From: an uncultured Enterobacteriaceae bacterium
GTDB taxonomy: Bacteria > Pseudomonadota > Gammaproteobacteria > Burkholderiales > SG8-39
NCBI GenBank assembly: GCA_964477695.1
Contig: CAYZFN010000228.1
Span: 10,281 to 74,280 of the forward strand
Reading direction: 5' to 3'
Length of the DNA: 64,000 nucleotides
A model generated the notes under the pieces. It had not been told where the DNA came from. It made no database searches and saw nothing but the letters and a program-made list of their open reading frames with translations. The translations under genes and the position numbers were made by a program. This document shows, piece after piece, positions 1 through 59,944 of this stretch (its first letter is position 1; each line of letters starts with the position of its first letter).

Positions 1-1101
1 ACCGTGGACGACTTCATCGGCGAAGACGTTTCAGCGCTCGCGAGCGACGAAGCGCAGGCCGCGGGTCGGCGCGGACTGCGTGCGCTCGACGAGGTCGACG
101 AGGTATCGCTGGTGGCGGTGCCCGACATCCACATCCAGCCGGCGCCGCGGGTGCAGGAAGTCGTGGTTCCGCCGTGCATCCCGGATCCTTGCCTGCCGAC
201 GCCGGTGCTGCCGGCCACGCCGCAGCCGCGCAGCGTCGGCGATGCGCCACCGCTGTTCAGCGAGGACGAGATCTATCGCGTGCAGGCAGCCGCGGTGCAA
301 CTTTGCGAGGCGCGGCGCGACCGGATCGCGTTGCTCGATGCGCCGTTCGACGCATGCACCGGCGGCACGCTGCTCGCCGCCGCGCTGCAGAGCTGGCGCA
401 GCCGCTTCGATTCCGCCTTCGCCGCGCTGTACGCGCCCTGGGTCGGCGTGGTCGACCCGCTGCGCACGCGGCCCGGCCGCTCGCCGGATCGCCGCGCTCT
501 CACGCGGCTCGTTCCGCCGAGCGGCCACGTGGCCGGCACGTATGCGGCCACGGACGTCGCGCGCGGCGTGCACGTCGCGGCGGCGAACGAGCCGCTGGCA
601 TGGCTGCAGGACGTGTCGCTGGCGATCGACGAGGAGCGCCACGGCGTCCTCAATTCGCTGCAGGTCAACGTGATCCGCGCCCAGCCGGGACGCGGCCTGC
701 GGCTGCTCGGCGCGCGCACGCTCTCGTCCGATTCCGACTGGCGCTACGTCAACGTGCGCCGCCTGGTGTCGATGATCGGCAAAGCGCTCGGCACTTCGTT
801 GCAGTGGGCGGTGTTCGAGCCGAACGACTGGCGCACGCGCGCCAAGCTGGCGCTGGTCGCCGGCTCTTTCCTCGAGGAGCTGTGGCGGCGCGGCGCGCTG
901 GTCGGCGAGACCTCCGCGCAGGCGTATTTCCTGCGCTGCGACGACGGCAACAACCCGCCCGATGCACGCGCGCGCGGCGAGCTGCTGATGCAGATCGGCC
1001 TCGCGCCGAGCGTGCCGATGGAGTTCATCGTGGTGCGCATCGGCCGCGACGAGAACGGTCTCGCGCTGAGCGAGCAAGGCGCCCTGGGGGCCGCCGCCTA
1101 G
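1..1101 (+). CDS. Contractile-tail sheath protein, C-terminal ~366 aa (5' end lies upstream of the window)
   Basis: Frame 1 is open from nt 1 to TAG 1099-1101; the track's GTG at 4 is only the first start-like codon. The block LRLLGARTLSSDSDWRYVNVRRLVSMIGKAL..FEPND..TRAKL..FLEELWRRGAL..AYFLRCD matches the conserved sheath C-terminal domain of phage/eCIS sheaths as I recognise it. A tube gene follows 2 nt later. Confidence 0.85.
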   Translation, partial: TVDDFIGEDVSALASDEAQAAGRRGLRALDEVDEVSLVAVPDIHIQPAPRVQEVVVPPCIPDPCLPTPVLPATPQPRSVGDAPPLFSEDEIYRVQAAAVQLCEARRDRIALLDAPFDACTGGTLLAAALQSWRSRFDSAFAALYAPWVGVVDPLRTRPGRSPDRRALTRLVPPSGHVAGTYAATDVARGVHVAAANEPLAWLQDVSLAIDEERHGVLNSLQVNVIRAQPGRGLRLLGARTLSSDSDWRYVNVRRLVSMIGKALGTSLQWAVFEPNDWRTRAKLALVAGSFLEELWRRGALVGETSAQAYFLRCDDGNNPPDARARGELLMQIGLAPSVPMEFIVVRIGRDENGLALSEQGALGAAA

Positions 1102-1103
1102 CC

Positions 1104-1733
1104 ATGGCCCTCGTGCCCGACATCCTGCGAGCAGCCGGCGCGCCCGACGCGGCCGCGGCGCTGCGCGCCGACCCGCTGCTCTGCCACAACTTCATCGTCA
1201 GCGTGCTCGACTCGAGCAGCTCGCTCGCGGCCGGCATCGCGCTTTCCGCGGTCTCCGACGTGCTGCTCGGCGGCTTCGCCGAGTGCTCGGGCCTGGAGAT
1301 GACCATGAAGGTCGAGGAGTACAACGAGGGCGGCAACAACGGCGCGGTGCGCAAGTTTCCCGGCCGCATGAGCTGGGGCAACCTGGTCCTGAAGAAGGGC
1401 GTCGGCTCCTCCAGCGCCCTGTGGGACTGGGCCTACGGCTTCGCGATCGGCAAGGGCAAGCGCCGCGACGGCTTCGTCGTCCTCCTCACCGAGCTGCACG
1501 TGCCGAACAACATCTGGTACTTCCGCAACGGCCTGCCGCTCAAGTGGAGCGGGCCGTCGCTCAACGCGACGCAGAACAGCGTCGCCATCGAGTCGATGGA
1601 GATCTCGCACGAGGGCCTGTACCAGGTGCCGTTCGTCGGCGCCGCGAGCGGCCTCGCGGGGCTCGCCGCGGGCTCCATCGGCGGCGCGCTGCAGGCGGGC
1701 GTCGGTGCGGTGAGCGCGGCAGGGAATCTCTGA
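1104..1733 (+). CDS. Tail tube protein (T4 gp19-like; Afp1/Pvc1-type inner tube)
   Basis: ATG at 1104, in the frame of track ORF 174..1733. FAECSGLEMTMKVEEYNEGGNNG.VRKFPGRMSWGNLVLKKG and NATQNSVAIESMEISHEGL are typical of the conserved phage tail-region tube family. Sits directly after the sheath. Confidence 0.85.
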   Translation: MALVPDILRAAGAPDAAAALRADPLLCHNFIVSVLDSSSSLAAGIALSAVSDVLLGGFAECSGLEMTMKVEEYNEGGNNGAVRKFPGRMSWGNLVLKKGVGSSSALWDWAYGFAIGKGKRRDGFVVLLTELHVPNNIWYFRNGLPLKWSGPSLNATQNSVAIESMEISHEGLYQVPFVGAASGLAGLAAGSIGGALQAGVGAVSAAGNL

Positions 1734-1951
1734 TGCCCGAGCCGATGGAAGCCCGCGTCCGCGAGGCCACCGTGAACCTGAGCGCCGTGGACGGCGAATC
1801 GCTGCTCAGCCCGCAGCTCCTGGCCCGCGTCGTGTCGGCAGTGCTCGACGCGCTCGCCGCGCAGCGCGAAGGCGAGGCGAGCCGCCGGCGAGACACGCAC
1901 GTTCCGTGCGCTTGCCAGCACGGCGGCTGCGACGGCGGGGAGAGCGCCTGA
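1733..1951 (+). CDS. Small hypothetical protein (72 aa) inside the eCIS operon
   Basis: The ATG overlaps the tube stop (TGATG 1731-1735) and its own stop overlaps the next ATG (1949-1953). No recognisable domain; supported only by operon packing. Confidence 0.45.
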   Translation: MPEPMEARVREATVNLSAVDGESLLSPQLLARVVSAVLDALAAQREGEASRRRDTHVPCACQHGGCDGGESA

Positions 1952-2643
1952 TGCCGAACGCACGGATCCTCGTCTACTGGGACGGCCCGACCGCGACGCC
2001 GAAGGCTATCGACGTGCAGTACAACCCGGGCGAGTACACGCTCGACAAGCAGCTGCAGATCGGCGAAGCGACCATCCCCGGGCTCGACGCACCGCTGCAG
2101 CAGTTCGTACGCGGCAACGCCGAGAAGCTGACGCTCGACCTTTTCTGCGACACCACCGAGCACGGCATGGGCGAGAACGCGGTGAGCGTGACGACGGAGA
2201 CCGACAAGATCTTCCAGCTCATCCGCATCGACCCGGCGCGCCACGCGCCGCCGGTCCTCGCCTTCCTCTGGGGCCCGCAGTTCCCGGGCGGCAATATCGT
2301 TGTCGAGCAGGCGGGGCAGCGGCGCGAGGCGTTCCTGTGCGTGATGGAGAGCATCCGGCAGAAGTTCACCCTGTTCTCCCCGGACGGCGTACCGCTGCGC
2401 GCCACGCTCACCGTGTCGCTGCGCGAGTACCGCGATCTGGGCGACCAGTTCGCGCAGATCAAGCCCAGCTCGCCCGACCGCACGCACGTGCACGTGCTGC
2501 AGCAGGGCGACACGCTCGCCGCGGTGTCGCGGCGCTTCTACGACAGTCCCGCGCGCTGGCGGCCGATCGCCGACGCCAACCGCATCGAAGATCCGCGCCG
2601 CACGGCTCCCGGCGCGTTCGTACGCGTGCCGCCGCTCGACTAG
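1951..2643 (+). CDS. Tube-like N-terminal domain + C-terminal LysM protein (Afp7/Pvc7-like tube initiator/baseplate plug)
   Basis: ATG 1951. The C-terminal HVLQQGDTLAAVSRRFYDSPARWRPIADANRIEDP is a LysM motif. The N-terminal VQYNPGEYTLDK... resembles tube-fold proteins. Position between tube and hub fits. Confidence 0.8.
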   Translation: MPNARILVYWDGPTATPKAIDVQYNPGEYTLDKQLQIGEATIPGLDAPLQQFVRGNAEKLTLDLFCDTTEHGMGENAVSVTTETDKIFQLIRIDPARHAPPVLAFLWGPQFPGGNIVVEQAGQRREAFLCVMESIRQKFTLFSPDGVPLRATLTVSLREYRDLGDQFAQIKPSSPDRTHVHVLQQGDTLAAVSRRFYDSPARWRPIADANRIEDPRRTAPGAFVRVPPLD

Positions 2644-2645
2644 CC

Positions 2646-3878
2646 ATGCCTGCCGCCACGATCCTCGATGCCTCGCGCCGCTTCGGCGGGTTCTACGTGC
2701 CGCGCTTCGAGATCCGCGCCTCCGGGGCAGGCATCGACCCGGCCGTGCTGCGCGACGTCCTGCAGGTCACCTACAGCGACTCGACCACCGAGATCGACAG
2801 CTTCGACATGACGGTGAACAACTGGGACCCGCTGGCGCGCGAGTTCAAGTACGTGGGCGCCGAGCAGAAGAGCGCGCTCGGCGATACGCCCGCGCAGCGG
2901 CTGTTCAATCCGAACGCCGCGGAATTCGAGCTGCGCTTCGGCTACGGCGACGAGCTGCAGCCGGTGATGCGCGGCTTCACGGCCAGCCTCGAGCCTTCGT
3001 TCCCGTCGGGCGGCGCCTCGACGCTCACGGTGCGTGCGCTCAACGTATTGCACCGGCTGCGCACCAAGCAGAACCGCGATCACTGGCCGAACGACCGCGT
3101 GCCGCGCGGCGAGGTGAAGATCAGCCGCATCGCCGAGGACATCGGCTCGCGCCAGATCGGCGGCCGCCGCTTCCCGGTATCGGTGGCGACCGACGCGCAG
3201 GCAAAGGCGAAGGAGCCGGTGCTCGAGTACGTGGCGCAGAACAACCAGCACGACCTCGACTTCCTGCTCGAGTGGGCGCGGCACATGAGCTACGTCGTCT
3301 ACCTCGACCAGCGCACCTCGGGTGGCAAGACGCGCGAGGTGCTCTACTTCGGCCCTTCGCAGGCGCGCGGCGGCAGCGCGCCCGAGGAGGGCTACGAGCT
3401 CGAGTGGGGCAAGTCGCTCATCGACTTCACGCCCAAGCTCTCGACGGCGAACCAGCTCAGCGCAGTCGAGGTGCGCAGCCACGACCGCGAGACGAACAAG
3501 ACCATCCGCGAGCGGGCAACGCTGAACGACGTGCCCGTCAACAAGGACCTGCACGACATCGTGCGCGGCAGCGGCCCGCAGGCGTCCGACGCGAGCCGCG
3601 AGCACGTGATCACCGGCGAGCCGCAGCACGACGCGGCGCAGGCGCGCCGGCGCGCGCGCGACTTCCTGTCCGACCGGCTGAAGAAGCTCGTCGAGGCGAC
3701 CGGCACGACGATCGGGCTGCCCGACCTGCGCGCCGGCACGAAGGTGCGCATCGTCGGCCTCGGCGCGCGCTTCTCGGGGAGCTACCTGGTCACCAAGACC
3801 ACGCACAGCTTCGACGGCAACGGGTATCGCACCAAGTTCACCGCGCGGCGCGAGGCGTCGCTGAAAGGACAGGGATGA
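2646..3878 (+). CDS. Phage late control gene D-like baseplate hub (gp27/VgrG N-terminal-like)
   Basis: ATG 2646. FYVPRFEIRASG.. at the N-terminus and LPDLRAGTKVRIVGLGARFSGSYLVTKTTHSFDGNGYRTKFTARRE at the C-terminus are characteristic of the P2 gpD family. Confidence 0.8.
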   Translation: MPAATILDASRRFGGFYVPRFEIRASGAGIDPAVLRDVLQVTYSDSTTEIDSFDMTVNNWDPLAREFKYVGAEQKSALGDTPAQRLFNPNAAEFELRFGYGDELQPVMRGFTASLEPSFPSGGASTLTVRALNVLHRLRTKQNRDHWPNDRVPRGEVKISRIAEDIGSRQIGGRRFPVSVATDAQAKAKEPVLEYVAQNNQHDLDFLLEWARHMSYVVYLDQRTSGGKTREVLYFGPSQARGGSAPEEGYELEWGKSLIDFTPKLSTANQLSAVEVRSHDRETNKTIRERATLNDVPVNKDLHDIVRGSGPQASDASREHVITGEPQHDAAQARRRARDFLSDRLKKLVEATGTTIGLPDLRAGTKVRIVGLGARFSGSYLVTKTTHSFDGNGYRTKFTARREASLKGQG

Positions 3879-4669
3879 GACAGCCGGGCGTCGTGACGGG
3901 CGTAGTGAACAAGGTTGACGCGAAGCAGGGCCGCGTCATGGTCGAGTACCGCAACATCGAGGACCGGATGCTCTCGCCGTGGGCGTACATCGCCGCGCCG
4001 CTCTCGGGCAAAGGGCGCGGTGCGCTGTTCATGCCCGAAGAAGGCGACGAGGTGCTGGTGTGCTACGGCGACGAGGAGTTCGCGCGTCCCTATGTGGTCG
4101 GCTTCCTCTGGAACGGCGATCAGATCTCGCCCGAGACCGAGGCCAAGAACCGCGTCATCGTTACTCCGGGCGGGCACCAGCTGCGCTTCGAGGACAAGGA
4201 CAACGACAAGCGCGTGATCCTCAAGACCGACGGCAAGCACCAGCTGACGATGGACGACAAGAACAAGTCGGTGACCCTGGAGAGCGCCGGCCACCACAAG
4301 CTCGAGATCAAGGACAACGGCGGCACGGTCATCGTCACCACCCAGTCGGGCGGCAAGGTGACGCTCGAGGATTCGGGCAAGGCCACTGTGGAGGCCGGCC
4401 AGAACATCATTACCCTCGGTCCCGCCGGCATCACCATCCAGGCCAAGGCGGGAAAGATGAGCATCGAGTCGAGCGCACCCATGACGGTCCGCTCGAGCGC
4501 GGCGATGACCATCCAGGCCTCCGCCGCCGTGAATCTCACCGCCGGCGCCGCGCTCAACGTCAATGCCGCGCTCGCCAACTTCACCGGCGCGATCAAGTGC
4601 TCGGCGATCATCGCCCAGGCGGTGGTCGGTCTGATCTACTCGCCGAGCCGCGGCACGATCCTGCCATGA
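3875..4669 (+). CDS. gpV/gp5-like baseplate spike (OB-fold + beta-helix)
   Basis: ATG 3875 overlaps the hub stop (ATGA). GVVTGVV..VD..QGRVMVEY...SPWAYIAAPLSGKGRGALFMPEEGDEVLVCYGDEEFARPYVVGFLWNG is the gp5/gpV OB-fold signature. It is followed by short beta-helix-like repeats (HQLRFEDKDND, HQLTMDDKNKS, HKLEIKDNGG...). Confidence 0.85.
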   Translation: MRQPGVVTGVVNKVDAKQGRVMVEYRNIEDRMLSPWAYIAAPLSGKGRGALFMPEEGDEVLVCYGDEEFARPYVVGFLWNGDQISPETEAKNRVIVTPGGHQLRFEDKDNDKRVILKTDGKHQLTMDDKNKSVTLESAGHHKLEIKDNGGTVIVTTQSGGKVTLEDSGKATVEAGQNIITLGPAGITIQAKAGKMSIESSAPMTVRSSAAMTIQASAAVNLTAGAALNVNAALANFTGAIKCSAIIAQAVVGLIYSPSRGTILP

Positions 4670-5436
4670 CGCCGCTGACCGTCCCTCCGCCACGGCTCAG
4701 CTGGAAGGACGCCGGCGCGCCGCAGCTCGAGCAACAGGTCGACGTGAAGCTCGCCGCGCTGCGCTTCCCGGACGGCCTGGAAGCCACCGATGCCGAGATG
4801 CAGATCGTTGGCGCCTACGTCTATCGCACCGGCCCGGCCGGCGAGGAGCTGTGGAACGAGGCCGAGCAGCGCTGGGGCGCGGCGCCGGCCGACCTCACGG
4901 CGCTGCCGCCGCTGCCGTTCGTCTACAAGAAGGGCGACCCGCTGCCGTGGCAGGGGACGTTGATTGCCATCGGGCAGAAGGACAAGGACGGCAACGATCG
5001 CTTCGCGAAGGCCGTTGGCAACACGCCGCGCTATCGGTTGCGCGCCCATGGGCGCTTCACGCGCGACGGCGAGGATTACGCGGGGCTGAGCGCGCCCTCC
5101 GCCGACCTCGCCTTCGTCAGCGGCCTCGAGAACCAGCGCTTCAAGGTGAACATGGACCCGGACGATCCGCAGCAGGCGCAGGAGGTGACGCTGCTGCTCA
5201 GGAACTCGGCGCTCGCCTCCGCCGGCCAGGTGAAGATCACCACGAAGAACGGACAGGCGGTCGAGATCGCGAACTTCGACCCCGCCGGCAACCCGCTCGC
5301 CGCCGTGCAGCTCGCCGCCGATGGCTCGATCCATCTGAAGCCGGCGCCGGGACAGAAGATCGTGCTCGACGGCGACCTCGTGGCGCAGCACATCCGCTAC
5401 CTGCCCGCGGCCGGCGGCCCGGCGCTCGACCTCTGA
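4666..5436 (+). CDS. Hypothetical protein (256 aa) between spike and gp25
   Basis: ATG 4666 overlaps the spike stop (ATGA) and the gene ends 1 nt before the gp25 start. Codon usage matches the neighbours. No domain recognised and no PAAR motifs. Confidence 0.5.
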   Translation: MTPLTVPPPRLSWKDAGAPQLEQQVDVKLAALRFPDGLEATDAEMQIVGAYVYRTGPAGEELWNEAEQRWGAAPADLTALPPLPFVYKKGDPLPWQGTLIAIGQKDKDGNDRFAKAVGNTPRYRLRAHGRFTRDGEDYAGLSAPSADLAFVSGLENQRFKVNMDPDDPQQAQEVTLLLRNSALASAGQVKITTKNGQAVEIANFDPAGNPLAAVQLAADGSIHLKPAPGQKIVLDGDLVAQHIRYLPAAGGPALDL

Positions 5437-5437
5437 C

Positions 5438-5845
5438 ATGGACGCGCCGCTCAACCGCGAATTCCTCGGCATCGGCTGGCGCTTTCCGCTGCAGGTGACG
5501 CCCGACGGGCGCATCGCGCAATCGCGCTACGAGCAGAAGATCGAGGAATCGATCGTGCTCATCCTTTCGACCGCGCCCGGCGAGCGGCCGATGCTGCCCG
5601 ATTTCGGCTGCGGCATCCACGACTTCACCTTCGCGCCGAACGACAGCCGCACCGTCGCGCTGATCGTGCATCTCGTGCGCCAGGCGCTGACGCGCTACGA
5701 GCGGCGCGTCGATCTGCTCGACGTGGGCACCGAGGCGAGTCCCGAGGCGCCGAACCTGCTCCTCATCCGCGTCAACTACCGCGTGCGCGCGACCAACGCC
5801 ATCGGCAACCTGGTCTACCCCTTCTACATCAAGGAGAGCCGCTGA
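5438..5845 (+). CDS. GPW/gp25-family baseplate wedge protein
   Basis: 135 aa. GIGWRFPL..., IEESI.LILST.PGERPMLPDFGCGIHDF.F is the classic gp25/GPW lysozyme-like fold signature. Confidence 0.85.
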   Translation: MDAPLNREFLGIGWRFPLQVTPDGRIAQSRYEQKIEESIVLILSTAPGERPMLPDFGCGIHDFTFAPNDSRTVALIVHLVRQALTRYERRVDLLDVGTEASPEAPNLLLIRVNYRVRATNAIGNLVYPFYIKESR

Positions 5846-10157: not shown

Positions 10158-10194
10158 ACGCGAAAGCGAACGACCTGCGAGGGAGGGAAGCGCA

Positions 10195-12660: not shown

Positions 12661-12700
12661 AGCGCACAGCAACCCCACCTTCCGTCATGGAGAACTGAAA

Positions 12701-14461: not shown

Positions 14462-14462
14462 T

Positions 14463-17117
14463 ATGGGCGCGCAAGACCAGCGGCCGCGGTTCTACGAAGG
14501 CCAGTACCTCGGCGCACAGGACCTGGCGGCGATCGTCGACTACCTGCGCGGCGCCGATGCGCGGCATGCGCTAGGCGCGCACACCTGGGGCATCGCGATC
14601 GGGCTCTACCTCATCGAGCGCCCGGCACCGGGCGGCGCAGACCGGCGGGAGGTGATCCTCACGCCGGGTGTCGCCTGGGACGGCTTTGGTCGAGCGATCG
14701 TGTGCACCCGCCCGACGCGCCTTGCCGAGGACCTGTTCGCCGCCATTCCCTACGACGCGCTGCTCGACGGTGCGAGCGCCAAGGGGCGCGGCGTACGCGT
14801 GTGGCTCAATTACAAGGAGACCGCGGCTCAGCTGCCTGCGCCCGGCTTCGAGAGCTGCAGCGACCAGGACCAGAACGCGCGCGTTGCCGAGAGCTTCGAC
14901 TTCGTCGTCGGCTCCTATTCCCCGGGACCGAACCGCCAGGGCAACGTCGCCATCGGCACCGAGACCCTGCAAGCCGAGGAGGCGCTGACGCGCTTCGACG
15001 GCGCGGCGCTGCCGCTATACGACGCGTCGGTGCCGCACCAGAGCTTTCCCACCGCCAAGGTGCCGCGCTGGCTTGTGCCGGTGGGCTACGTACGCTGGAT
15101 CGCGCGCGACGGCGACCTCGGCTACTTCGTCTCGCGCGACGGCGCGCCCGAGTACCGGCTCAAGGACTGCACGCGGGCTTTCCGCCGCTACATCGGCGCG
15201 GTGGTCGAGAACGTGGTCGCCGCCGACGGGGCAATCGTGCTGCAGCGGCGCGACAAGGATCCGCGCGGGCGCCACAAGCTCGCCTGGCTGCTGAACTGCG
15301 GACGCAGCGCCGACGAGCTGCTCGCCGACCTCGCCTGGGTCGAGGGCAACCTGCGCGTGGTCGGCGACGCGAAGCTCGCGCGCGGCAAGCTGCTGATGCG
15401 CGATGCCGACGGCGACGACGAAGGCGTGCCGATCTATCTCGACCGCGTCGGCGACGATCCGCAAATCGACTCGAAGAAGTGCTGCGAGGACCTCGACTCG
15501 TCGGCCGGTGGACCTTCCGCCGACGACAAGGCGAAGCAGCCGCGCGAGTTCCGCGCCGCGATCGGCAAGAAGGGCCAGAACGAGCACCGCTGGATCGTCG
15601 GCCCGGAGGTCGCGGGAGCGACGCCACAGGATCCGCCGACGCTCGCGCCGCGCTTCGTGGTGCTGAGCGGCACCGGCCACACCGACAACAAGGACAGCGA
15701 GGGCCGCGCCGGCGTCAACACGCGCGACCCGAACGCGGCGCTCGAGGTGAAGGGCGACTGGAACAAGGAGGATGGCGCGGTCCGCGTCGCCGGCACCCAG
15801 CCGACGATCCGCTACGAGGGCGGCGCGGACGTCGACAACCTGAAGTGGCTCACGCAGATCACGACGCAGCCGAAGGGCGCCTTCTGCATCGCCTACCGCA
15901 AGGCACCGGCGAACCCCGGCGACGATCCGACCTGGCCGGCGGTGGTGAACGTGCTGTCCAGCCCGGAGCGCGTGGGTATCCGCTCGGGCGATCCGAAGGC
16001 GCCGCTTGCCGTGAAGGCCGACGGCGACGCGCAGGACCTGGTCGCTTTCGAGGACAACGCCGGCGGCACGCAATGGAAGATCCGCCTCAAGCCGGACGCC
16101 AACCACACCGGCCTCACCTTTAGCGATCCCGCAAGCGGCGCCAACGCCGTCTTTCTCAAGCCGGGCGGCGACGTCGGCATCGGCACGCTCGATCCCCAGG
16201 GACGGCTTAGCGTCTACGGCAAGGTGCAGCCGGCGCAGGGCATGCTTTCCCTCTTCACCGCCTCGGCCGACATCCAGTACGACGGCGGCAACGACCAGGT
16301 TTTCATCTTCCAGCAGAGCCCGGCGGGCATTACGTCGTTCCTTGGCGCAAAGGTAGGAATCGGCGGCACCACGCCGTACGCCGCGCTTTCCGTGCGCGGC
16401 GCGGGAACGACCGAGGAGCTGGTGAGCTTCGAGAATGCGGCCGGCACGACCCGGTGGCACATCAACCAGAACCTTGCGGCGGCGCCGGTCAAGGGCTTCA
16501 ACATCGCCGAGACGGGCGTGGCCGACGGGCGGCTGTTCATCAGGCTGGGCGGCGACGTAGGCATCGGCACCTACGATCCGAAGGACCGGCTGCACGTCGC
16601 GGGAAACTTCCTGCGCGTCAACGGCGCGGGCGGCGAGCAGGCCTATATCGGCGGCGACGGCTCCTCGAACGTCTACGGCCAGGACGTGCAGATCGGCAGC
16701 GCGAAGTCCGGCGTGGGCAACGTGCACTTCTGGAACCGCGCCGACAGCGACTGGATGTGGCTGAGCTGCAAGCAGATAAGCCATATCTCGGATGCCCGGC
16801 ACAAGACGCACGTCGAGACGCTTTCGGGCGCGCTCGCCCACGTGACGCGGCTGCGTGGAGTGCGGTTCAAGTGGAAACCAGCGCGAGGATCGGACGCGCC
16901 GTCCCGGCCAGGGCTGGGCGTCATCGCACAGGAAGTCGCCGAGGTATTGCCCGAGCTCGTGCACGAGATGCGCGGCGACCTGACCGTGTCGTACGCCGAA
17001 ATGGTGCCGCTGCTGATCGAAGCGGTGAAAGAGCTGAAAGGCCAGGTCGACGAGCTGCGCGAGGAAGTGAAGCACCTTTCCGACGCCGCGCCAAAGAAGA
17101 AGGCGCCGCGCGGATAA
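14463..17117 (+). CDS. Tail fibre protein with C-terminal endosialidase-type intramolecular chaperone (peptidase S74-like) domain
   Basis: ATG 14463 after GGAGG. N-module RPRFYEGQYLGAQDL...HTWGIAIGL. Internal fibre repeats (GGDVGIGTLDPQGRLSVYG, GGDVGIGTYDPKDRLHVAG). The C-terminal 109 aa (16788-17114) reads SDARHK...LRGVRFKWK...GVIAQEV..V.PELV......V.Y..MVPLLIEAVKELK, which is the S74 autochaperone signature. Confidence 0.8.
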   Translation: MGAQDQRPRFYEGQYLGAQDLAAIVDYLRGADARHALGAHTWGIAIGLYLIERPAPGGADRREVILTPGVAWDGFGRAIVCTRPTRLAEDLFAAIPYDALLDGASAKGRGVRVWLNYKETAAQLPAPGFESCSDQDQNARVAESFDFVVGSYSPGPNRQGNVAIGTETLQAEEALTRFDGAALPLYDASVPHQSFPTAKVPRWLVPVGYVRWIARDGDLGYFVSRDGAPEYRLKDCTRAFRRYIGAVVENVVAADGAIVLQRRDKDPRGRHKLAWLLNCGRSADELLADLAWVEGNLRVVGDAKLARGKLLMRDADGDDEGVPIYLDRVGDDPQIDSKKCCEDLDSSAGGPSADDKAKQPREFRAAIGKKGQNEHRWIVGPEVAGATPQDPPTLAPRFVVLSGTGHTDNKDSEGRAGVNTRDPNAALEVKGDWNKEDGAVRVAGTQPTIRYEGGADVDNLKWLTQITTQPKGAFCIAYRKAPANPGDDPTWPAVVNVLSSPERVGIRSGDPKAPLAVKADGDAQDLVAFEDNAGGTQWKIRLKPDANHTGLTFSDPASGANAVFLKPGGDVGIGTLDPQGRLSVYGKVQPAQGMLSLFTASADIQYDGGNDQVFIFQQSPAGITSFLGAKVGIGGTTPYAALSVRGAGTTEELVSFENAAGTTRWHINQNLAAAPVKGFNIAETGVADGRLFIRLGGDVGIGTYDPKDRLHVAGNFLRVNGAGGEQAYIGGDGSSNVYGQDVQIGSAKSGVGNVHFWNRADSDWMWLSCKQISHISDARHKTHVETLSGALAHVTRLRGVRFKWKPARGSDAPSRPGLGVIAQEVAEVLPELVHEMRGDLTVSYAEMVPLLIEAVKELKGQVDELREEVKHLSDAAPKKKAPRG

Positions 17118-17120
17118 CGC

Positions 17121-18584
17121 ATGCTGCAGATCGACCGCCTGTCGCTCCAGGTGCGCAGCGCGGCCGCGCCGGAGCGTGCGGAGCGCCTCGCGCGTCGTCT
17201 GCGCGATGCAGCGGTATCCGGCATCGAGCGCAACCGCATTGCCGGCGCCCCGCCCGGCTCGCCCGCCTATCTGTTCGTCGATCGCCTTGCCTTCGCCTGC
17301 ATGGTGAGCAGCGACTGGGACGACGCGACGATCGGCGCGGCGGTGGCACGCGCGCTCGCTGGTGCACTCGCGCGGAGCCTCGAGCTCGAGGAGACCGTGG
17401 CGTTCCGGGACCGCACCGAGCTCCTCGCCGCGTTCTATTCCGCGCTGGCGGAGGGACGCGCCTGGGAGCGCTGGTGGTTCGAGGAGTTCGATGGGCTGAA
17501 GGCGCTTGCGGCTTCCGCCGCGCTGCGCACCTCGCTGATCAACGAGCGCGACGACGGCGTCGCTGCGCTCGCGCGGCTCACGGAACACTGCTTTTGTAGC
17601 GTAATGGCCGTACTCAGTGCGGGCGACGCCAGGCGTCTGCTCGAGTGGTTCACGGCGCGGCATGCGAGCGCGCGCGTCCCTGTGCTCTCTCTCTGGAAGG
17701 CGTCCGCTGCACTCGTCGCGAATTCAAGCAACGCAGTGGCAACCCTGCGCGCAGTTCTCGCGCTCGAGCGCACCACGCCGGGCGCCGCTGGCCGCGAGAC
17801 GCTGCGCGCGTTGCAGGCTATGGCGGCGTTGCGGACAGCGGCGCTGCGCGGCGAGCTGGATCTGCCGCGGCACGCCGGCTCGGCCATCGCAATCGATCTG
17901 CGGGACGCGGCCGCGAAGCTTGCCATTGGGAGCGAGTGGCTGGAAGCCCTTGGTGAAGACGACGCCGGGGCGATCTCGGACGAGCTCATTTGCCTCGCGG
18001 CCGGCGCGCCCCCTTCGGAGACGGCATCGGAACAGGCCAATCCGGTAAGGATGCGCGAGCGCCTCTTCACGCCGCACGGCGGCGCGTTCGTGCTGCTGAA
18101 GGCGCTCGACTGGCTCGGCTGGCCGAGGTCATGGGCTTCTTCCGGCCCTGGCCGGGACGAATTGGTCCGCGCGCTCTCTTGGGCGCTCGCGGTGCGCGCG
18201 CTCGTACCGCACGGCGCGCGCCAAGCGCTGAGTGATCCCGTGTTGCATGCGGCGTTCGGCCTCGAGCAGCCGCTCGCGGTCCTGAAACGCAATCGCAGGG
18301 AAGCAACCCAGGCGTTGAACCAGCGTTCTATCGTGAAAGCGGCCGACGAGCTGCTCGCCCAGTTCGCGAGCCGGGTTCCAGGCCTCGCGGGAGCGTCGGC
18401 CGGATACCTGCGGCGCAATGCGCTCGCGCTGCCCGCGAGCGTCGAGCTGCACGGCGAGCGCTGCGTGGTGCGGCTCGGCCGTGCGCCGCTGGATGTGCTC
18501 CTTGTCCTCGCCGGCGCGAAAACCGGGCGCATCGCGCTGCCCGGCGGCCCGACCCTCGAGCTGCGCGCGGAGGGTGGAGCGTGA
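17121..18584 (+). CDS. Ala/Leu/Arg-rich hypothetical protein (487 aa); positional candidate for the Afp14/Pvc14-like tail-length determinant
   Basis: ATG 17121, 3 nt after the fibre stop; its stop overlaps the GTG of the ATPase gene (GTGA 18581-18584). Composition suggests a helical protein. The call is positional only. Confidence 0.45.
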   Translation: MLQIDRLSLQVRSAAAPERAERLARRLRDAAVSGIERNRIAGAPPGSPAYLFVDRLAFACMVSSDWDDATIGAAVARALAGALARSLELEETVAFRDRTELLAAFYSALAEGRAWERWWFEEFDGLKALAASAALRTSLINERDDGVAALARLTEHCFCSVMAVLSAGDARRLLEWFTARHASARVPVLSLWKASAALVANSSNAVATLRAVLALERTTPGAAGRETLRALQAMAALRTAALRGELDLPRHAGSAIAIDLRDAAAKLAIGSEWLEALGEDDAGAISDELICLAAGAPPSETASEQANPVRMRERLFTPHGGAFVLLKALDWLGWPRSWASSGPGRDELVRALSWALAVRALVPHGARQALSDPVLHAAFGLEQPLAVLKRNRREATQALNQRSIVKAADELLAQFASRVPGLAGASAGYLRRNALALPASVELHGERCVVRLGRAPLDVLLVLAGAKTGRIALPGGPTLELRAEGGA

Positions 18585-20758
18585 ACGCACCGCTGAACGT
18601 GCAAGCAGCGCATGACGGTCCGCGCGCCGCGCGCGCCGCGCTCGACGCCGAGCTCGCGCGGCTCGACCTGCTCCTGCAGCGCGAGATCCTGCGCCTGCGC
18701 GCGCGCTACGAGCTGACGCTCGACGAGTTCCGGGGCCTTTACATCAGCGACCGCGCCGTAGACGAGCTGATCCGCGCCGCGCGCCGCGGCGACGCCGATC
18801 CGAGCGCCGAGGCGCTGACCGAGCGCGCGCGGGCCATCCTCGGCGAGCGCGAGCTCGCGCCCTTCGACGCCGCCACCCCGTGGGCCGCCCTGGCGCGCGC
18901 ACTCTGCCTGTCGAACGCCGAGCGGGATCTGGTGCTGCTGGCGCTCGCGCCCGAGCTCGAGCCGAAATACGAGACGCTGTTCGCCTATCTCAACAACGAC
19001 GTCACCCGCAAGCTCGGCACCGCGGAGCTTGCCGGGCGGCTGTTCGCCGACTCGGTGGAGGAGCGCGTCGCGCTGCGCGGCTGCCTCGCGCCGGACGCGC
19101 CGCTGATGGCGCTCGGCATCCTCGAGTTCGCGCCGGCGACACGCGATGCGCCGCGCGCGCAGCGCGGGCTGCGCCTCGCAGCGCCGCTCGTCGACTGGCT
19201 GCAGGGATTGCCGTACGTCTCGGAGCGGCTGGTGGGCATCGCGCGCCTCTCGCGCCAACAGAGCACGGTTTCGCTGCCGTCGCCCCACGCGGCGTACTAC
19301 GCGGCCGGGGACGTCTTTCCGGTACTGGTTGTAACGGCTTCCAGCGCCGAGGAAGCGCAGGACGACGCCGATCGCGGCCTCACCGTTGCCGGCGAATCGG
19401 TGCTGATGCTCGACCTGCGCGCGCTCCGCAGCGCGCAAGCCCCTATGGAGATCGGCTGCGCAGTGGAGCAGATGTGCGCGCTCTTCGGCCTGACGCTGCT
19501 TGCCGCGCCGCTCGATGCCGTGTTCGACGCCGAGGGACGCCCGCTAGAGGCGCCCGCGGCCGCGATGGAGCGCCTGTGTGTGCGGGCACGGCGCGTGGTG
19601 CTGGCCGGCGGCGCATCGCTGAGATGGCGGGAAGTGGTGGGCCGCCAGTCACGCGCGGCGCGCGCCGTGGAGCTGCGTCTGCCGCCGAGCGACGCGCTGC
19701 AGCGCGCCGCAGCCTGGCGCGAGACGCTCGGGCCGCACGCGGCCGATTTCGACGTCGAGGCGCTCGCCGACCGCTTCGCCCTCAGCGTGACGCGCATCGG
19801 CATCGCCGCGCAGCGCGCTTTCGATCGCGCCGGCTTCGATGGTCGCGCCGCGCCGACGCAGCAGGAGCTCTTCGAAGCGGCACGCGCCGCCTCGGCCGAG
19901 GGGGCCGAAGGTGTCGTGCGGCAGCTGCCGACACCCTTCTCCTGGGACGACCTGGTGGTGCCGCCGAACGTGCGCCAGCGGCTCGACGATGTGGTGCGCG
20001 CGATCGAGCTGCGGCCGAAAGTCCTCGACCAGTGGGGCTTCGCGCGCCGCACGGCGGGCGCGCGCGGCGTGAAGGTCATGTTCGCCGGCGCGAGCGGTAC
20101 CGGCAAGACCATGGCCGCGGCGATCGTTGCCCGCGCCCTCGGCCTGGAAGTGCACCGCGTGCAGCTCGCTTCCGTGGTCTCGAAGTACATCGGCGAGACC
20201 GAGAAGAACCTCGACCGCGCCTTCGACGCGGCAAACCGCTCCAACGCGGTGCTGTTCATCGACGAGGCCGACGCGCTGTTCGGCAAGCGCTCCGAGGTGA
20301 AGGACGCGCACGACCGCTACGCCAACGTCGAGACCGCGTACCTGCTGCAGAAGATGGAGGACCACGACGGCATCGTCATCCTCGCCACCAACCTCGCCGA
20401 CAACATCGACGAGGCCTTCTCGCGGCGCATGCATTTCGTGGTCGAGTTCCCGCTGCCCGATGCGGCGAGCCGCGAGCGCCTGTGGCGCGGCATGTTCCCC
20501 GCCGAAGCGCCGCGCGCCGCGAACGTCGATTTCCCTTTCCTCGCGCGCCAGTTCACGCTGGCCGGCGGCGACATCCGCAACATCGTGCTGGACGCGGCTT
20601 ACGCCGCGGCGCAGCGCAGCGCACCGATCGCAATGGGCGACCTGCTGCGCGCCGTGGCGCGCCAGCACGAGAAGCGCGGCAAGGTTCCGGGCGCGAGCGA
20701 GTTCCGCGAGTACTTCGATCTGCTCGGTAAGGCCGCCGATGTCGAACGGCAAGACTAA
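18581..20758 (+). CDS. AAA+ ATPase, Afp15/Pvc15-like (eCIS assembly/cargo-loading ATPase)
   Basis: Walker A GASGTGKT, Walker B VLFIDEADALFGKR, then ANVETAYLLQKMEDHDGIVILATN and FSRRMHFVVEFPLPD. Has a long N-terminal extension as in eCIS ATPases. Confidence 0.9.
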   Translation: MNAPLNVQAAHDGPRAARAALDAELARLDLLLQREILRLRARYELTLDEFRGLYISDRAVDELIRAARRGDADPSAEALTERARAILGERELAPFDAATPWAALARALCLSNAERDLVLLALAPELEPKYETLFAYLNNDVTRKLGTAELAGRLFADSVEERVALRGCLAPDAPLMALGILEFAPATRDAPRAQRGLRLAAPLVDWLQGLPYVSERLVGIARLSRQQSTVSLPSPHAAYYAAGDVFPVLVVTASSAEEAQDDADRGLTVAGESVLMLDLRALRSAQAPMEIGCAVEQMCALFGLTLLAAPLDAVFDAEGRPLEAPAAAMERLCVRARRVVLAGGASLRWREVVGRQSRAARAVELRLPPSDALQRAAAWRETLGPHAADFDVEALADRFALSVTRIGIAAQRAFDRAGFDGRAAPTQQELFEAARAASAEGAEGVVRQLPTPFSWDDLVVPPNVRQRLDDVVRAIELRPKVLDQWGFARRTAGARGVKVMFAGASGTGKTMAAAIVARALGLEVHRVQLASVVSKYIGETEKNLDRAFDAANRSNAVLFIDEADALFGKRSEVKDAHDRYANVETAYLLQKMEDHDGIVILATNLADNIDEAFSRRMHFVVEFPLPDAASRERLWRGMFPAEAPRAANVDFPFLARQFTLAGGDIRNIVLDAAYAAAQRSAPIAMGDLLRAVARQHEKRGKVPGASEFREYFDLLGKAADVERQD

Positions 20759-59639: not shown

Positions 59640-59675
59640 AAGCGCCCTTGCCCTCCCGAAATAGGGCGCTCGTCC

Positions 59676-59708
59676 GAGGCTCGGCCCCCGCCGGGCCTCT
59701 TTTTTTTT
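59676..59708 (+). terminator. Rho-independent terminator
   Basis: GAGGCTCGGC-CCC-GCCGGGCCTC (10-bp stem with one G-U pair) followed by T9 (59700-59708). A second hairpin AGCGCCCT...AGGGCGCT lies at 59641-59670. Confidence 0.7.
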
Positions 59709-59939: not shown

Positions 59940-59944
59940 CGCGC

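What the first reader, a model, noticed from the sequence alone, without database searches (positions are those of the whole stretch)
1..20758. Afp/PVC-type extracellular contractile injection system (eCIS) structural operon with split hub/spike; cap not in window
Seen: 16 co-directional ORFs with almost no spacers and repeated stop/start overlaps (TGATG 1731-1735 and 1949-1953, ATGA 3875-3878 and 4666-4669, TGATG 5843-5847, TTGA 7902-7905, GTGA 18581-18584). The recognisable families follow phage-baseplate order: sheath, tube, LysM, gpD, gpV, gp25, J, P2-I, fibres. The series ends in an AAA+ ATPase with a long N-terminal extension. No capsid, portal, terminase, integrase or T6SS membrane-complex genes occur anywhere in the 64 kb. 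Established: this gene set, and especially the Afp15-type ATPase, defines eCIS (Afp, PVC, MAC and relatives). Inference: this is a particle-forming, cargo-delivering eCIS. Its hub (gpD-like) and spike (gpV-like) are separate genes rather than one VgrG/Afp8-like fusion. The cap/terminator and any extra tube or sheath genes must lie upstream of nt 1.
Basis: partly seen in the sequence, partly recalled or inferred. Interest (0 to 1): 0.6.

Follow-up and report, generated by a model that had tools for sequence, protein, structure and literature searches.

The report
Phage-tail-like toxin injector gene cluster
This is a gene cluster for a phage-tail-like protein injector (an extracellular contractile injection system) with its toxin cargo and a cell-lysis cassette next to it; the call is correct, but the system belongs to an already catalogued type, so it is a new example and not a new kind.

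Summary
Pfam and NCBIfam confirm sheath, tube, LysM tube initiator, gp27/gpD hub, gp5/gpV spike, gp25, Baseplate_J, Tail_P2_I, three fibre-type genes and a WHD+AAA ATPase.

A 99.9%-identical metagenome contig shows what lies upstream: a Pvc16_N cap, a 485-aa unknown, a 1061-aa sheath and a 146-aa tube.

Three refinements:
- It is not Afp/PVC (subtype Ia). Sheath and Baseplate_J are far closer to lineage II systems. The gene content matches Chen et al. 2019 subtype IIb: split afp8, one afp11, an afp6-like gene, no PAAR, and afp12/13 present.
- The split hub/spike is a published trait of subtypes IIa-c. It is conserved in four syntenic MAG loci.
- The operon does not end at the ATPase. Three putative cargo proteins follow (two DUF4157, one with Ntox4), then a conserved 226-aa gene, then a convergent endolysin/spanin cassette.

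Verdict: a new member of a known kind, of modest interest. Several conserved components have no known function.

The parts
1..1101 (+). Sheath protein. This is the C-terminal 366 aa of a 690-aa sheath whose start lies upstream of the window.
   Evidence: Phage_sheath_1 and Phage_sheath_1C. The full gene is at L002 6458-8530. The best PDB matches are Streptomyces CIS sheaths 8bky and 8bl4, at 8e-68 and 7e-67.
1104..1733 (+). Second tube-family protein, 209 aa. It is an Afp5/CIS5-like inner-tube adaptor.
   Evidence: Phage_T4_gp19 5.5e-33. TIGR02241 1.2e-29 and CIS5_fam 2.2e-24, the latter below its cutoff.
1733..1951 (+). 72-aa protein in the Afp6/Alg6 'plug' position.
   Evidence: No family hit. 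The assignment rests on position, and on conservation in L007 (33% over 51 aa). The Alg6 role is taken from PMC8894135.
1951..2643 (+). Tube initiator, Afp7/Alg7-like: a CIS_tube beta-barrel with a C-terminal LysM.
   Evidence: CIS_tube 5.3e-30. LysM at residues 176-228, 6e-6. The sequence was read.
2646..3878 (+). Baseplate hub, gp27/gpD-like. It is the N-terminal half of a split Afp8/VgrG.
   Evidence: Phage_GPD, weak. VgrG_rel positions 73-358. 9gtr_q residues 146-353, 2.9e-10.
3875..4669 (+). Central spike, gp5/gpV-like: OB fold plus beta-helix. It is the C-terminal half of a split Afp8/VgrG.
   Evidence: Phage_base_V 4.4e-17. 9gtr_q residues 378-612, 1.5e-17. VgrG_rel positions 373-532.
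4666..5436 (+). Conserved 256-aa all-beta protein with two beta-sandwich domains. It sits in the slot where other eCIS carry PAAR. Its function is unknown.
   Evidence: 163 cluster representatives at E<=1e-3. AF2 pLDDT 95.8. No specific fold match in PDB or BFVD. No Pfam, PHROG or NCBIfam hit.
5438..5845 (+). gp25-like baseplate wedge protein (Afp9).
   Evidence: GPW_gp25 2.7e-25.
5845..7905 (+). Baseplate_J / gp6-like wedge protein (Afp11). It is the only copy in the locus.
   Evidence: Baseplate_J 6.8e-19. TIGR02243 307 bits, above its cutoff. 9gtp_1K 4.6e-65.
7902..10157 (+). Tail_P2_I / CIS12-like baseplate and fibre adaptor, with an N-terminal NHL-like repeat region.
   Evidence: Tail_P2_I 6.6e-6 and NHL 6e-4. 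CIS12_fam 7.5e-39 and TIGR02242 1.1e-21.
10195..12660 (+). Tail fibre 1: an N-terminal baseplate-anchor domain, a collagen-like triple-helix segment and a C-terminal domain.
   Evidence: Collagen 5.7e-7. CIS13_fam at the N-terminus, 3.3e-22. Fits the eBAP3-type description in PMC12923769.
12701..14461 (+). Fibre-like protein 2. It has the same N-terminal anchor domain, is Cys-rich, and has a C-terminal coiled coil.
   Evidence: The N-terminus aligns with g11 and g13. 72% identical homologue in L015. No Pfam family.
14463..17117 (+). Tail fibre 3, with a C-terminal Peptidase_S74 intramolecular chaperone domain.
   Evidence: Peptidase_S74 3.3e-15 at residues 776-834. The N-terminus aligns with g11 and g12.
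17121..18584 (+). Conserved 487-aa helical protein, translationally coupled to the ATPase. Its function is unknown and it is not an evident tape measure.
   Evidence: 25 homologues, all 'hypothetical'. AF2 pLDDT 87.5, globular. No PDB fold or sequence match.
18581..20758 (+). Afp15-type AAA+ ATPase with an N-terminal winged-helix domain. Its likely role is cargo loading and assembly.
   Evidence: WHD 2.2e-25 at residues 21-220 and AAA 3.9e-27 at residues 499-625. The role is inferred from Alg15 and Pvc15.
20739..22769 (+). Putative cargo 1, 676 aa: a Pro/Ala-rich leader with an AGNxQT motif, a hydrophobic hairpin and a variable C-terminus.
   Evidence: Leader alignment with g17 and g18. Hydrophobic stretch at 326-377. 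One homologue, P0179, carries DUF4157.
22771..26628 (+). Putative cargo 2, 1285 aa: leader, DUF4157/eCIS_core (HExxH), hydrophobic and coiled segments, and a C-terminal Ntox4 toxin domain.
   Evidence: eCIS_core 3.9e-30 and Ntox4 2.1e-10. Hydrophobic segments. 69% identical homologue in L015.
26633..30430 (+). Putative cargo 3, 1265 aa: leader, DUF4157/eCIS_core, hydrophobic and coiled segments, and an unassigned C-terminal domain.
   Evidence: eCIS_core 5.1e-26. Shares only its N-terminal ~200 aa with g17. The C-terminus has no Pfam or PDB match.
30434..31114 (+). 226-aa protein that follows cargo 3. It is a candidate immunity or accessory protein.
   Evidence: No family hit. 43% identical homologue in the same position in L015 and L016. 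56% G+C.
31156..31692 (-). Endolysin (GH108 plus PG_binding_3).
   Evidence: Glyco_hydro_108 9.5e-25 and PG_binding_3 1.4e-16. phrog_315 2.5e-40.
31704..32021 (-). Outer-membrane spanin, a lipoprotein (Rz1/LysC-like).
   Evidence: LysC 5.2e-8. phrog_456 1.1e-9. Lipobox LLPVSIAG|C.
32018..32536 (-). Inner-membrane spanin, Rz-like: an N-terminal TM segment followed by a coiled coil.
   Evidence: phrog_739 2.3e-3, weak. Sequence features and a 4-nt overlap with the o-spanin start.
32545..33645 (-). 366-aa membrane protein that heads the lysis cassette. It is a holin candidate by position only.
   Evidence: Hydrophobic segment at 113-144 and a hydrophobic C-terminus. No family hit.

Best explanation
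The region is the larger part of a roughly 39-kb locus for a lineage II contractile injection system. Its gene content matches subtype IIb of Chen et al. 2019, with the Tail_P2_I adaptor and multi-fibre baseplate described by the Levy lab.

Proposed working, with each step marked as shown or inferred:

1. Baseplate (parts shown, arrangement inferred). A trimeric gp27-like hub (g5) and a separately encoded gp5-like spike (g6) nucleate the baseplate. They act together with the small plug-position protein (g3), the LysM tube initiator (g4) and the tube adaptor (g2). gp25 (g8), Baseplate_J (g9) and Tail_P2_I (g10) form the wedges. Three fibre-type proteins that share one N-terminal anchor domain (g11-g13) attach to the wedges.

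2. Tube and sheath (parts shown in L002, arrangement inferred). The 146-aa tube protein polymerises, surrounded by the 690-aa and 1061-aa sheath proteins. The 208-aa Pvc16_N cap closes the assembly. These three genes plus the start of the 690-aa sheath lie just upstream of the window.

3. Cargo loading (inferred by analogy with Alg15 and Pvc15). The WHD-AAA+ ATPase (g15), possibly with its coupled partner g14, loads three cargo proteins (g16-g18) into the tube lumen. Loading would use their shared disordered N-terminal leader. The two DUF4157 proteins are long, have hydrophobic and coiled segments and carry C-terminal toxin modules. They resemble tape-measure-related effectors and may substitute for the missing tape measure.

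4. Release and firing (inferred from adjacency and from the presence of fibres). The convergent endolysin/spanin cassette lyses the Gram-negative producer and frees the particles. The fibres bind a target, the sheath contracts, and the spike and cargo are driven in.
For: Gene set and order.

Upstream cap, sheath and tube: contig L002 has 3 mismatches in 2335 overlapping nt.

Lineage II affinity:
- Sheath: 8e-68 to Streptomyces CIS, against 5e-33 to Afp3.
- Baseplate_J: 4.6e-65 to 9gtp. Afp and PVC are not hit at 0.01.

Split Afp8. The split is stated as a trait of subtypes IIa-c in PMC6899500.

Synteny, including the split, is conserved in Calditrichia and Acidobacteriota MAG loci L007-L010. 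The distal half of the locus is conserved in L015 and L016.

Fibres: a shared N-terminal domain, a collagen segment and an S74 domain. This matches the association of Tail_P2_I with eBAP3-type fibres in PMC12923769.

Cargo:
- eCIS_core and Ntox4 domains.
- A shared leader motif.
- The DUF4157 toxin architecture of PMC8213781.
- The tape-measure-related effector (Tme) architecture of PMC11126660.
- Leader-dependent, ATPase-dependent loading in the PROCIS preprint.

Lysis cassette.

The proteins tested elsewhere in the window include no phage head, replication or integration genes and no T6SS membrane-complex genes.
Against: - No particle, release or injection has been observed. Everything rests on sequence.
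- The closest solved relatives are the S. coelicolor CIS and the Halogeometricum CIS (9ezm). The first acts in the cytoplasm and the second by cell contact, so extracellular action cannot be read from homology.
- The subtype IIb assignment rests on gene content, not on placement in the published Afp11 tree.
- No tape measure was identified.
- Four conserved proteins have no assignable role: g3, g7, g14 and the upstream 485-aa protein.
- The link between the lysis cassette and the injector is adjacency in this one genome. The related contig L015 ends before that point.
- The cap and the extra sheath and tube genes were seen on a near-identical metagenome contig, not on the window's own molecule.
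Confidence: 0.82

Rival explanations
1. A non-released contractile injection system. It would fire inside the producer or from a membrane anchor, like the Streptomyces cytoplasmic CIS, the cyanobacterial thylakoid-anchored CIS or the haloarchaeal T6SS-like CIS. The hydrophobic segments of g16-g18 would serve membrane association.
For: The nearest solved homologues of the sheath, Baseplate_J and spike are S. coelicolor CIS components and a Halogeometricum CIS. Those systems are not classical released particles. g16-g18 carry TM-like hydrophobic stretches.
Against: The locus has three fibre-type genes with collagen and S74 modules plus a Tail_P2_I adaptor. The Streptomyces clusters lack a conventional tail fibre. 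A complete Gram-negative endolysin and two-component spanin cassette abuts the operon. Hydrophobic segments are also typical of ejected tape-measure-related effectors.
Confidence: 0.12
2. An R-type tailocin or defective-prophage tail. It would be a phage-tail bacteriocin released by lysis that kills by membrane puncture without protein cargo.
For: The locus has a contractile tail gene set in P2-like baseplate order (V, W, J, I) with fibres and an adjacent lysis cassette. No head genes were found.
Against: It carries the eCIS markers that are not typical of tailocins or prophage tails: a Pvc16_N cap, a WHD-AAA+ ATPase, CIS_tube, and two eCIS_core/DUF4157 proteins, one with a toxin domain. There is no tape measure or chaperone pair between tube and hub. 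TIGR02243 and the CIS-family NCBIfam models match.
Confidence: 0.04
3. A type VI secretion system variant, such as T6SS-iv.
For: Sheath, tube, VgrG-like, gp25-like and AAA+ components are shared with T6SS.
Against: No TssJLM, TssA, TssK or ClpV family was detected. The locus has a cap, Baseplate_J, Tail_P2_I, fibres and DUF4157 proteins. Afp11 and Afp16 homologues are not seen in classical T6SS.
Confidence: 0.02

Closest known systems
eCIS subtype IIb (Chen et al. 2019, dbeCIS; PMC6899500)
   Same: afp8 is split into gp27-like and gp5-like ORFs. There is a single afp11. A small afp6-position gene is present. There is no PAAR/afp10. Divergent afp12 (Tail_P2_I) and afp13 (fibres) are present. 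There is no recognisable afp14. Two or three conserved genes have no known domain.
   Different: Membership was judged from gene content, not from the published Afp11 tree. The locus also has two sheath genes (one of 1061 aa), a cap-first gene order, and an adjacent spanin-containing lysis cassette. The text I read does not mention these features.
Tail_P2_I / eBAP3-type multi-fibre eCIS (fibre catalogue, PMC12923769)
   Same: There is a Tail_P2_I adaptor. Several fibre genes share a ~150-200-aa N-terminal anchor. One fibre has a collagen-like shaft and one has an S74 chaperone domain.
   Different: The eBAP3 HMM was not available, so the anchor type is inferred. The inference rests on the description in the paper and on a sub-threshold CIS13_fam hit.
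Streptomyces coelicolor CIS (subtype IId; PDB 8bky, 9gtp, 9gtr)
   Same: These are the closest solved sequences for the sheath (8e-68), Baseplate_J (4.6e-65) and the spike. DUF4157 effectors are associated with the system and there is no conventional tape measure.
   Different: In Streptomyces the VgrG-like protein is one fused 643-aa chain, there are no conventional tail fibres, the host is Gram-positive, the system acts in the cytoplasm, and it needs the membrane protein CisA. Here hub and spike are split, there are three fibre genes, the host is Gram-negative, and a lysis cassette is adjacent.
AlgoCIS of Algoriphagus machipongonensis (subtype Ib)
   Same: The cap is short (~200 aa, N-terminal domain only) and is followed by a second gene. 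A small plug-position gene lies between the tube adaptor and the LysM initiator. The sheath is large. The cargo proteins combine a disordered leader, DUF4157 and a variable C-terminal domain. There is an AAA+ ATPase.
   Different: AlgoCIS has a fused Alg8, a PAAR-like Alg10 and a tape measure Alg14. The 485-aa protein here shows no detectable sequence similarity to any PDB chain.
Afp / PVC (subtype Ia)
   Same: The overall logic is the same: tube, sheath, baseplate, fibres, ATPase, cap, and toxins at the 3' end.
   Different: Afp and PVC have a fused Afp8, a PAAR Afp10, a tape measure Afp14, adenovirus-type fibres, and the cap at the 3' end. Sequence similarity is much lower: the sheath scores 5e-33, and Baseplate_J is not detected at 0.01.

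Membership tests
eCIS superfamily (Chen et al. 2019: eight core subunit types) | Afp1/5 tube proteins | tested here: met
   Phage_T4_gp19 5.5e-33 for g2. A 146-aa gp19 protein upstream scores 4e-40.
eCIS superfamily (Chen et al. 2019: eight core subunit types) | Afp2/3/4 sheath | tested here: met
   Phage_sheath_1 and Phage_sheath_1C in g1 and in the 690-aa and 1061-aa upstream proteins.
eCIS superfamily (Chen et al. 2019: eight core subunit types) | Afp7 LysM tube initiator | tested here: met
   CIS_tube 5.3e-30 with a C-terminal LysM 6e-6 in g4.
eCIS superfamily (Chen et al. 2019: eight core subunit types) | Afp8 VgrG-like hub and spike | tested here: met
   Present as two ORFs, g5 and g6. 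Together they cover one VgrG-like chain.
eCIS superfamily (Chen et al. 2019: eight core subunit types) | Afp9 gp25 and Afp11 Baseplate_J | tested here: met
   GPW_gp25 2.7e-25. Baseplate_J 6.8e-19 and TIGR02243 307 bits.
eCIS superfamily (Chen et al. 2019: eight core subunit types) | Afp15 AAA+ ATPase | tested here: met
   WHD plus AAA in g15.
eCIS superfamily (Chen et al. 2019: eight core subunit types) | Afp16 cap (DUF4255 / Pvc16_N) | tested here: met
   Not in the window. Pvc16_N 2.5e-38 at L002 690-1316, about 6.7 kb upstream of window position 1, on a contig 99.9% identical over the overlap.
eCIS superfamily (Chen et al. 2019: eight core subunit types) | Released particles that act extracellularly | not testable with these tools
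   Only indirect support: fibre genes and an adjacent lysis cassette.
eCIS subtype IIb | afp8 split into gp27-like and gp5-like ORFs | tested here: met
   Conserved in L007-L010.
eCIS subtype IIb | Single afp11 copy (IIa and IIc have two) | tested here: met
   Only g9 matches Baseplate_J or TIGR02243 among all locus proteins.
eCIS subtype IIb | afp10 / PAAR absent | tested here: met
   No PAAR hit in any locus protein. No intergenic gap exceeds 41 nt. The model of the slot protein g7 is a two-domain beta-sandwich with no PAAR-like match among the fold-search hits.
eCIS subtype IIb | afp6 homologue present | tested here: inconclusive
   A 72-aa gene occupies the afp6 position (g3). No homology to Afp6 or Alg6 could be tested or shown.
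eCIS subtype IIb | Divergent afp12 and afp13 present | tested here: met
   Tail_P2_I and CIS12_fam in g10. Fibre genes g11-g13.
eCIS subtype IIb | Placement in the IIb clade of the Afp11 tree | not tested
The PDB neighbours only indicate lineage II.
Afp/PVC-type eCIS (subtype Ia) | Single contiguous Afp8 ORF | tested here: not met
   Hub and spike are separate ORFs in different frames.
Afp/PVC-type eCIS (subtype Ia) | PAAR (Afp10) and tape measure (Afp14) present | tested here: not met
   Neither was detected. The g14 model is globular and has no tape-measure match.
Afp/PVC-type eCIS (subtype Ia) | Closest sequence relatives are Afp and PVC components | tested here: not met
   Sheath and Baseplate_J are much closer to Streptomyces CIS.
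DUF4157-type eCIS cargo / tape-measure-related effector (Tme) | N-terminal DUF4157 with HExxH, a long linker with hydrophobic and coiled segments, and a C-terminal toxin | tested here: met
   g17 has eCIS_core at 114-191 (HELTH), hydrophobic stretches at 709-869, and Ntox4 at 1142-1209. g18 has eCIS_core at 132-208 (HETAH) and hydrophobic stretches at 426-886, but its C-terminal domain is unassigned.
DUF4157-type eCIS cargo / tape-measure-related effector (Tme) | Physically loaded in the particle and ejected | not testable with these tools
   Needs proteomics or cryo-EM of purified particles.

The most novel reading that the evidence does not exclude
I found no experimentally characterised member of subtype IIb, so this could be a useful window on that type. 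In it:
- a conserved two-domain beta-sandwich protein (g7) would replace PAAR at or near the spike tip;
- a conserved helical protein (g14) would work with the AAA+ ATPase;
- the long DUF4157 cargo proteins would double as the length-determining tape measure;
- a dedicated endolysin/spanin cassette would provide release.

Any of these would add a new mechanistic element to the biology of contractile injection systems.
Probability: 0.25. Interest if true: 0.5.

Novelty: new member of a known kind. Interest (0 to 1): 0.28.

Why it matters
The annotation value is real. The window holds a complete-looking lineage II injector from an uncultured Gram-negative bacterium with about 70% G+C. It comes with three candidate cargo proteins, three fibres and a release cassette in one contiguous stretch.

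Lineage II systems are numerous but poorly characterised, and I found no solved structure or functional study for the split-spike, PAAR-less subtype. The locus also supplies modular parts of the kind used in delivery-tool engineering: a shared cargo leader, fibres of the type tied to the Tail_P2_I adaptor in the fibre catalogue, and toxin modules.

It does not overturn anything. The gene set, the split hub/spike, the DUF4157 cargo architecture and the Tail_P2_I fibre arrangement have all been published.

Tried and rejected
- **g7 as PAAR or spike tip.** No PAAR or other Pfam, PHROG or NCBIfam hit. A confident AF2 model gave only generic Ig/Fab-like Foldseek matches (TM ~0.23) in PDB and nothing significant in BFVD. 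The longer homologues (~412 aa) carry no Pfam domain either. PAAR rejected; function left open.
- **g14 as tape measure.** The model is globular with many short helices, and it has no PDB sequence or fold match. Not supported.
- **Upstream 485-aa protein as an Alg16B-like cap adaptor.** No PDB sequence match at E<5. The idea rests on position only.
- **Toxin assignment for the C-termini of g18 and g16.** No Pfam or PDB hits.
- **Organism identification.** An exact look-up of the transaldolase failed. The plasmid/chromid search gave only ~61% identity to Ralstonia and Burkholderia. Cluster look-ups show an NCBI contig of 78,453 nt, but no record name could be retrieved. Sample accessions were not found in the literature. 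Organism left unidentified.
- **Sigma-54 promoter upstream of the cap gene.** There is no match better than chance. A 3-mismatch site overlaps the start of the 95-aa ORF. Not claimed.
- **Promoter and terminator scan of 20-34.5 kb.** Nothing above shuffled expectation.
- **tRNA and Rfam scans of the window.** Nothing found.
- **Conservation of the lysis cassette next to related loci.** The related contig ends just after the g19 homologue, so this stays untested.

Full report
**1. Observation**

The window is about 70% G+C, so the mechanical ORF list contains many overlapping false frames. A third-position GC frame plot and start-codon inspection resolve one unbroken series of + strand genes.

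They are 1-1101, 1104-1733, 1733-1951, 1951-2643, 2646-3878, 3875-4669, 4666-5436, 5438-5845, 5845-7905, 7902-10157, 10195-12660, 12701-14461, 14463-17117, 17121-18584 and 18581-20758. The first is cut by the window edge.

No intergenic gap exceeds 41 nt.

**2. Family assignments**

Pfam, precomputed Pfam on identical proteins and NCBIfam agree:

| Gene | Assignment | Best scores |
|---|---|---|
| g1 | sheath | Phage_sheath_1 / 1C |
| g2 | gp19-type tube | 5.5e-33; TIGR02241; sub-threshold CIS5_fam |
| g3 | 72-aa, no family | none |
| g4 | CIS_tube with C-terminal LysM | 5.3e-30 |
| g5 | gp27/gpD-like hub | Phage_GPD (weak); VgrG_rel positions 73-358 |
| g6 | gpV/gp5 spike | Phage_base_V 4.4e-17; VgrG_rel positions 373-532 |
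| g7 | 256-aa, no family | none |
| g8 | gp25 | 2.7e-25 |
| g9 | Baseplate_J | 6.8e-19; TIGR02243 307 bits |
| g10 | Tail_P2_I | TIGR02242; CIS12_fam |
| g11 | fibre with collagen segment | CIS13_fam-like N-terminus |
| g12 | fibre-like, no family | none |
| g13 | fibre with Peptidase_S74 | 3.3e-15 |
| g14 | 487-aa, no family | none |
| g15 | ATPase | WHD at 21-220, AAA at 499-625 |

The rest of the window, 33.8-64 kb, encodes ordinary metabolic, transport and signalling proteins, including a Gram-negative porin. The proteins tested include no capsid, portal, terminase, integrase, TssJLM or ClpV.

**3. What lies upstream**

An exact-protein look-up of g2 returned metagenome contigs that are 99.8-99.9% identical to the window. 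Contig L002 has 3 mismatches in 2335 overlapping nt, and window position 1 corresponds to L002 position 7430.

Reading L002 in order:
- the C-terminal end of an HTH_8 regulator
- a 95-aa gene
- a 208-aa Pvc16_N (DUF4255) cap, 2.5e-38
- a 485-aa protein with no family
- a 1061-aa sheath protein
- a 146-aa gp19 tube protein
- the full 690-aa sheath whose C-terminal half is g1

That prediction is correct. No head genes appear in that stretch.

**4. What lies downstream**

The operon does not stop at the ATPase.

- **g16** (20739-22769) overlaps the ATPase stop by 20 nt.
- **g17** (22771-26628, 1285 aa) has eCIS_core/DUF4157 at 114-191 and an Ntox4 toxin domain at 1142-1209.
- **g18** (26633-30430, 1265 aa) has eCIS_core at 132-208.
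- g17 and g18 share only their first ~200 residues, at 42% identity, including the HExxH motif. Both have central hydrophobic stretches.
- g16 lacks DUF4157. It does share the Pro/Ala-rich N-terminal leader with an AGNxQT...L motif. One of its few homologues carries DUF4157.
- **A 226-aa gene** (30434-31114) follows. It is conserved in the same position in a related locus.

A tightly packed cassette converges on this end from the minus strand:
- a 366-aa membrane protein, 33645-32545
- an Rz-like inner-membrane spanin, 32536-32018
- a lipoprotein outer-membrane spanin, 32021-31704 (LysC 5e-8, phrog_456 1e-9)
- a GH108 + PG_binding_3 endolysin, 31692-31156 (phrog_315 2.5e-40)

This 30-34 kb stretch has lower G+C, 56-65%.

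**5. Which kind of injector**

*Sequence neighbours.* Searches against the PDB put the sheath closest to the Streptomyces CIS sheaths 8bky and 8bl4 (8e-68 and 7e-67) and to 9ezm from Halogeometricum (3.6e-60). Afp3 scores only 5e-33. Baseplate_J hits the S. coelicolor baseplate chain 9gtp_1K at 4.6e-65, and no Afp or PVC chain at 0.01. So the system is lineage II, not Afp/PVC (subtype Ia).

*Published subtype traits.* Chen et al. 2019 (PMC6899500) state that afp8 is one ORF in subtypes Ia, Ib and IId but is split into gp27 and gp5 ORFs in IIa, IIb and IIc. IIa and IIc have two afp11 copies. afp6 survives only in IIb within lineage II, and afp10/PAAR is absent only from IIb. IIa and IIb keep divergent afp12 and afp13. 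afp14 is generally absent from lineage II.

*Fit.* The locus meets each testable content criterion for IIb: split afp8, one Baseplate_J, no PAAR, Tail_P2_I plus fibres, and no recognisable tape measure. It also has a small gene in the afp6 slot. Homology of that gene to Afp6 could not be tested. I could not place Afp11 in the published tree, so the subtype call rests on content.

*The split is real and ancient.* g5 and g6 map to consecutive parts of one 643-aa VgrG-like chain, residues 146-353 and 378-612 of 9gtr_q. The same two-ORF arrangement, in different frames, recurs in four syntenic loci from Calditrichia and Acidobacteriota MAGs. Those loci share the whole order from cap to fibres.

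**6. Fibres**

g11, g12 and g13 share an N-terminal domain. g11 adds a collagen-like segment and g13 adds an S74 intramolecular chaperone domain.

The recent fibre catalogue (PMC12923769) describes exactly this arrangement. Loci with Tail_P2_I adaptors carry eBAP3- or eBAP5-anchored fibres, are proposed to carry up to four fibres per baseplate, and often have collagen shafts and S74 domains. The eBAP HMMs were not available to me, so the anchor type is inferred.

**7. Unknown conserved parts**

- **g7** belongs to a family with 163 cluster representatives, mostly 240-270 aa. Its AF2 model is very confident (pLDDT 95.8) and shows two beta-sandwich domains. Foldseek finds only generic Ig/Fab-like similarity in the PDB and nothing significant in BFVD. 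It is not PAAR.
- **g14** has 25 homologues, all unannotated. Its model is confident (pLDDT 87.5) and globular-helical, with no PDB match. It is not an evident tape measure.
- **The 485-aa cap-adjacent protein** has no PDB sequence match.

These correspond to the 'subtype-specific conserved genes without known domains' noted by Chen et al.

**8. Mechanism**

The parts list is shown. Their roles follow from established phage-tail and eCIS structural work: AlgoCIS in PMC8894135, and Streptomyces CIS in PMC10066040.

Cargo loading is inferred from the PROCIS preprint. There, a disordered N-terminal leader and the AAA+ ATPase Alg15 are required to load DUF4157-containing cargo into the tube lumen.

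g17 and g18 combine DUF4157, hydrophobic helices, coiled segments and a C-terminal toxin. This matches the tape-measure-related effector (Tme) of S. davawensis (PMC11126660). That suggests, without showing, that these proteins also fill the tape-measure role that is otherwise missing.

Extracellular release is inferred from the fibres and from the adjacent endolysin/spanin cassette. Geller et al. (PMC8213781) summarise release by lysis as the accepted model.

The main uncertainty is the mode of action. The nearest solved relatives act in the cytoplasm or by cell contact, so I keep a 12% rival for a non-released system.

**9. Novelty and verdict**

Four features are already in the literature: the gene set, the split hub/spike, the DUF4157 cargo layout and the Tail_P2_I multi-fibre baseplate. 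This is a new member of a known kind, from an unidentified Gram-negative bacterium with about 70% G+C that is seen in several JGI and SRA metagenomes.

The residual interest has three sources:
- I found no characterised member of this subtype.
- Four conserved components have no known function.
- A spanin-containing lysis cassette lies directly beside the locus. A four-term full-text search (contractile injection system, spanin, endolysin, release) returned only three papers, and none appeared from title or abstract to describe a lysis cassette dedicated to an eCIS.

Interest is 0.28.

Noticed in passing
window 31156-33645 (- strand): A complete-looking Gram-negative lysis cassette converges on the 3' end of the injector operon. 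It consists of a 366-aa membrane protein, an Rz-like i-spanin, a lipoprotein o-spanin (4-nt start/stop overlap with the i-spanin) and a GH108+PG_binding_3 endolysin. Its G+C is 62-65%, against about 70% for the operon. No canonical small holin was seen.
   Followed up: partly
window 20739-20960, 22771-23010, 26633-26890: The three putative cargo proteins share a Pro/Ala-rich N-terminal leader with an invariant AGNxQT...L motif, although g16 has no DUF4157 domain. This is a candidate system-specific loading signal.
   Followed up: partly
L002 2788-5973 (upstream of the window); L007 2440-5898: One of the two sheath paralogues is very large: 1061 aa here and 1152 aa in the Calditrichia locus. 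About 700 residues between the conserved N-terminus and the C-terminal sheath domains match no Pfam family. The Acidobacteriota locus L008 appears to have a much shorter version.
   Followed up: partly
L002 1318-2775 (upstream of the window): A 485-aa gene with no family hit lies immediately after the short (208-aa) cap gene, and it is weakly conserved in L007. Its position recalls the AlgoCIS cap adaptor Alg16B, but no sequence similarity to any PDB chain was detected.
   Followed up: partly
window 7902-8900: The N-terminal ~330 aa of the Tail_P2_I protein contains NHL-like repeats (one Pfam NHL hit at the 20-bit cutoff; further repeats are visible by eye). This suggests a beta-propeller fused to the baseplate adaptor.
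   Followed up: no
window 30434-31114: A 226-aa gene with unusually low G+C (56%) follows cargo 3. It is conserved at 43% identity in L015 and L016, even though the C-terminal ~380 aa of the g18 homologue there did not align. It may therefore not be a simple cognate immunity protein for that C-terminal domain.
   Followed up: partly
window 56277-59192 (- strand): A 971-aa STAND-type protein (AAA_22/NB-ARC-like NTPase plus many TPR repeats). It could be a regulator or a defence-type sensor. No link to the injector was examined.
   Followed up: no
window 59200-63700: A lower-G+C stretch (62-67%) holds several ORFs without Pfam hits, including a 555-aa protein at 62023-63690 and a PsiF-repeat protein at 61020-61484.
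   Followed up: no
L002 3-675 (upstream of the window): The C-terminal HTH_8 (Fis-type) end of a regulator, possibly a sigma-54 activator, and a 95-aa ORF precede the cap gene. A weak -24/-12-like sequence (3 mismatches) overlaps the start of the 95-aa ORF, but it is no better than chance.
   Followed up: partly
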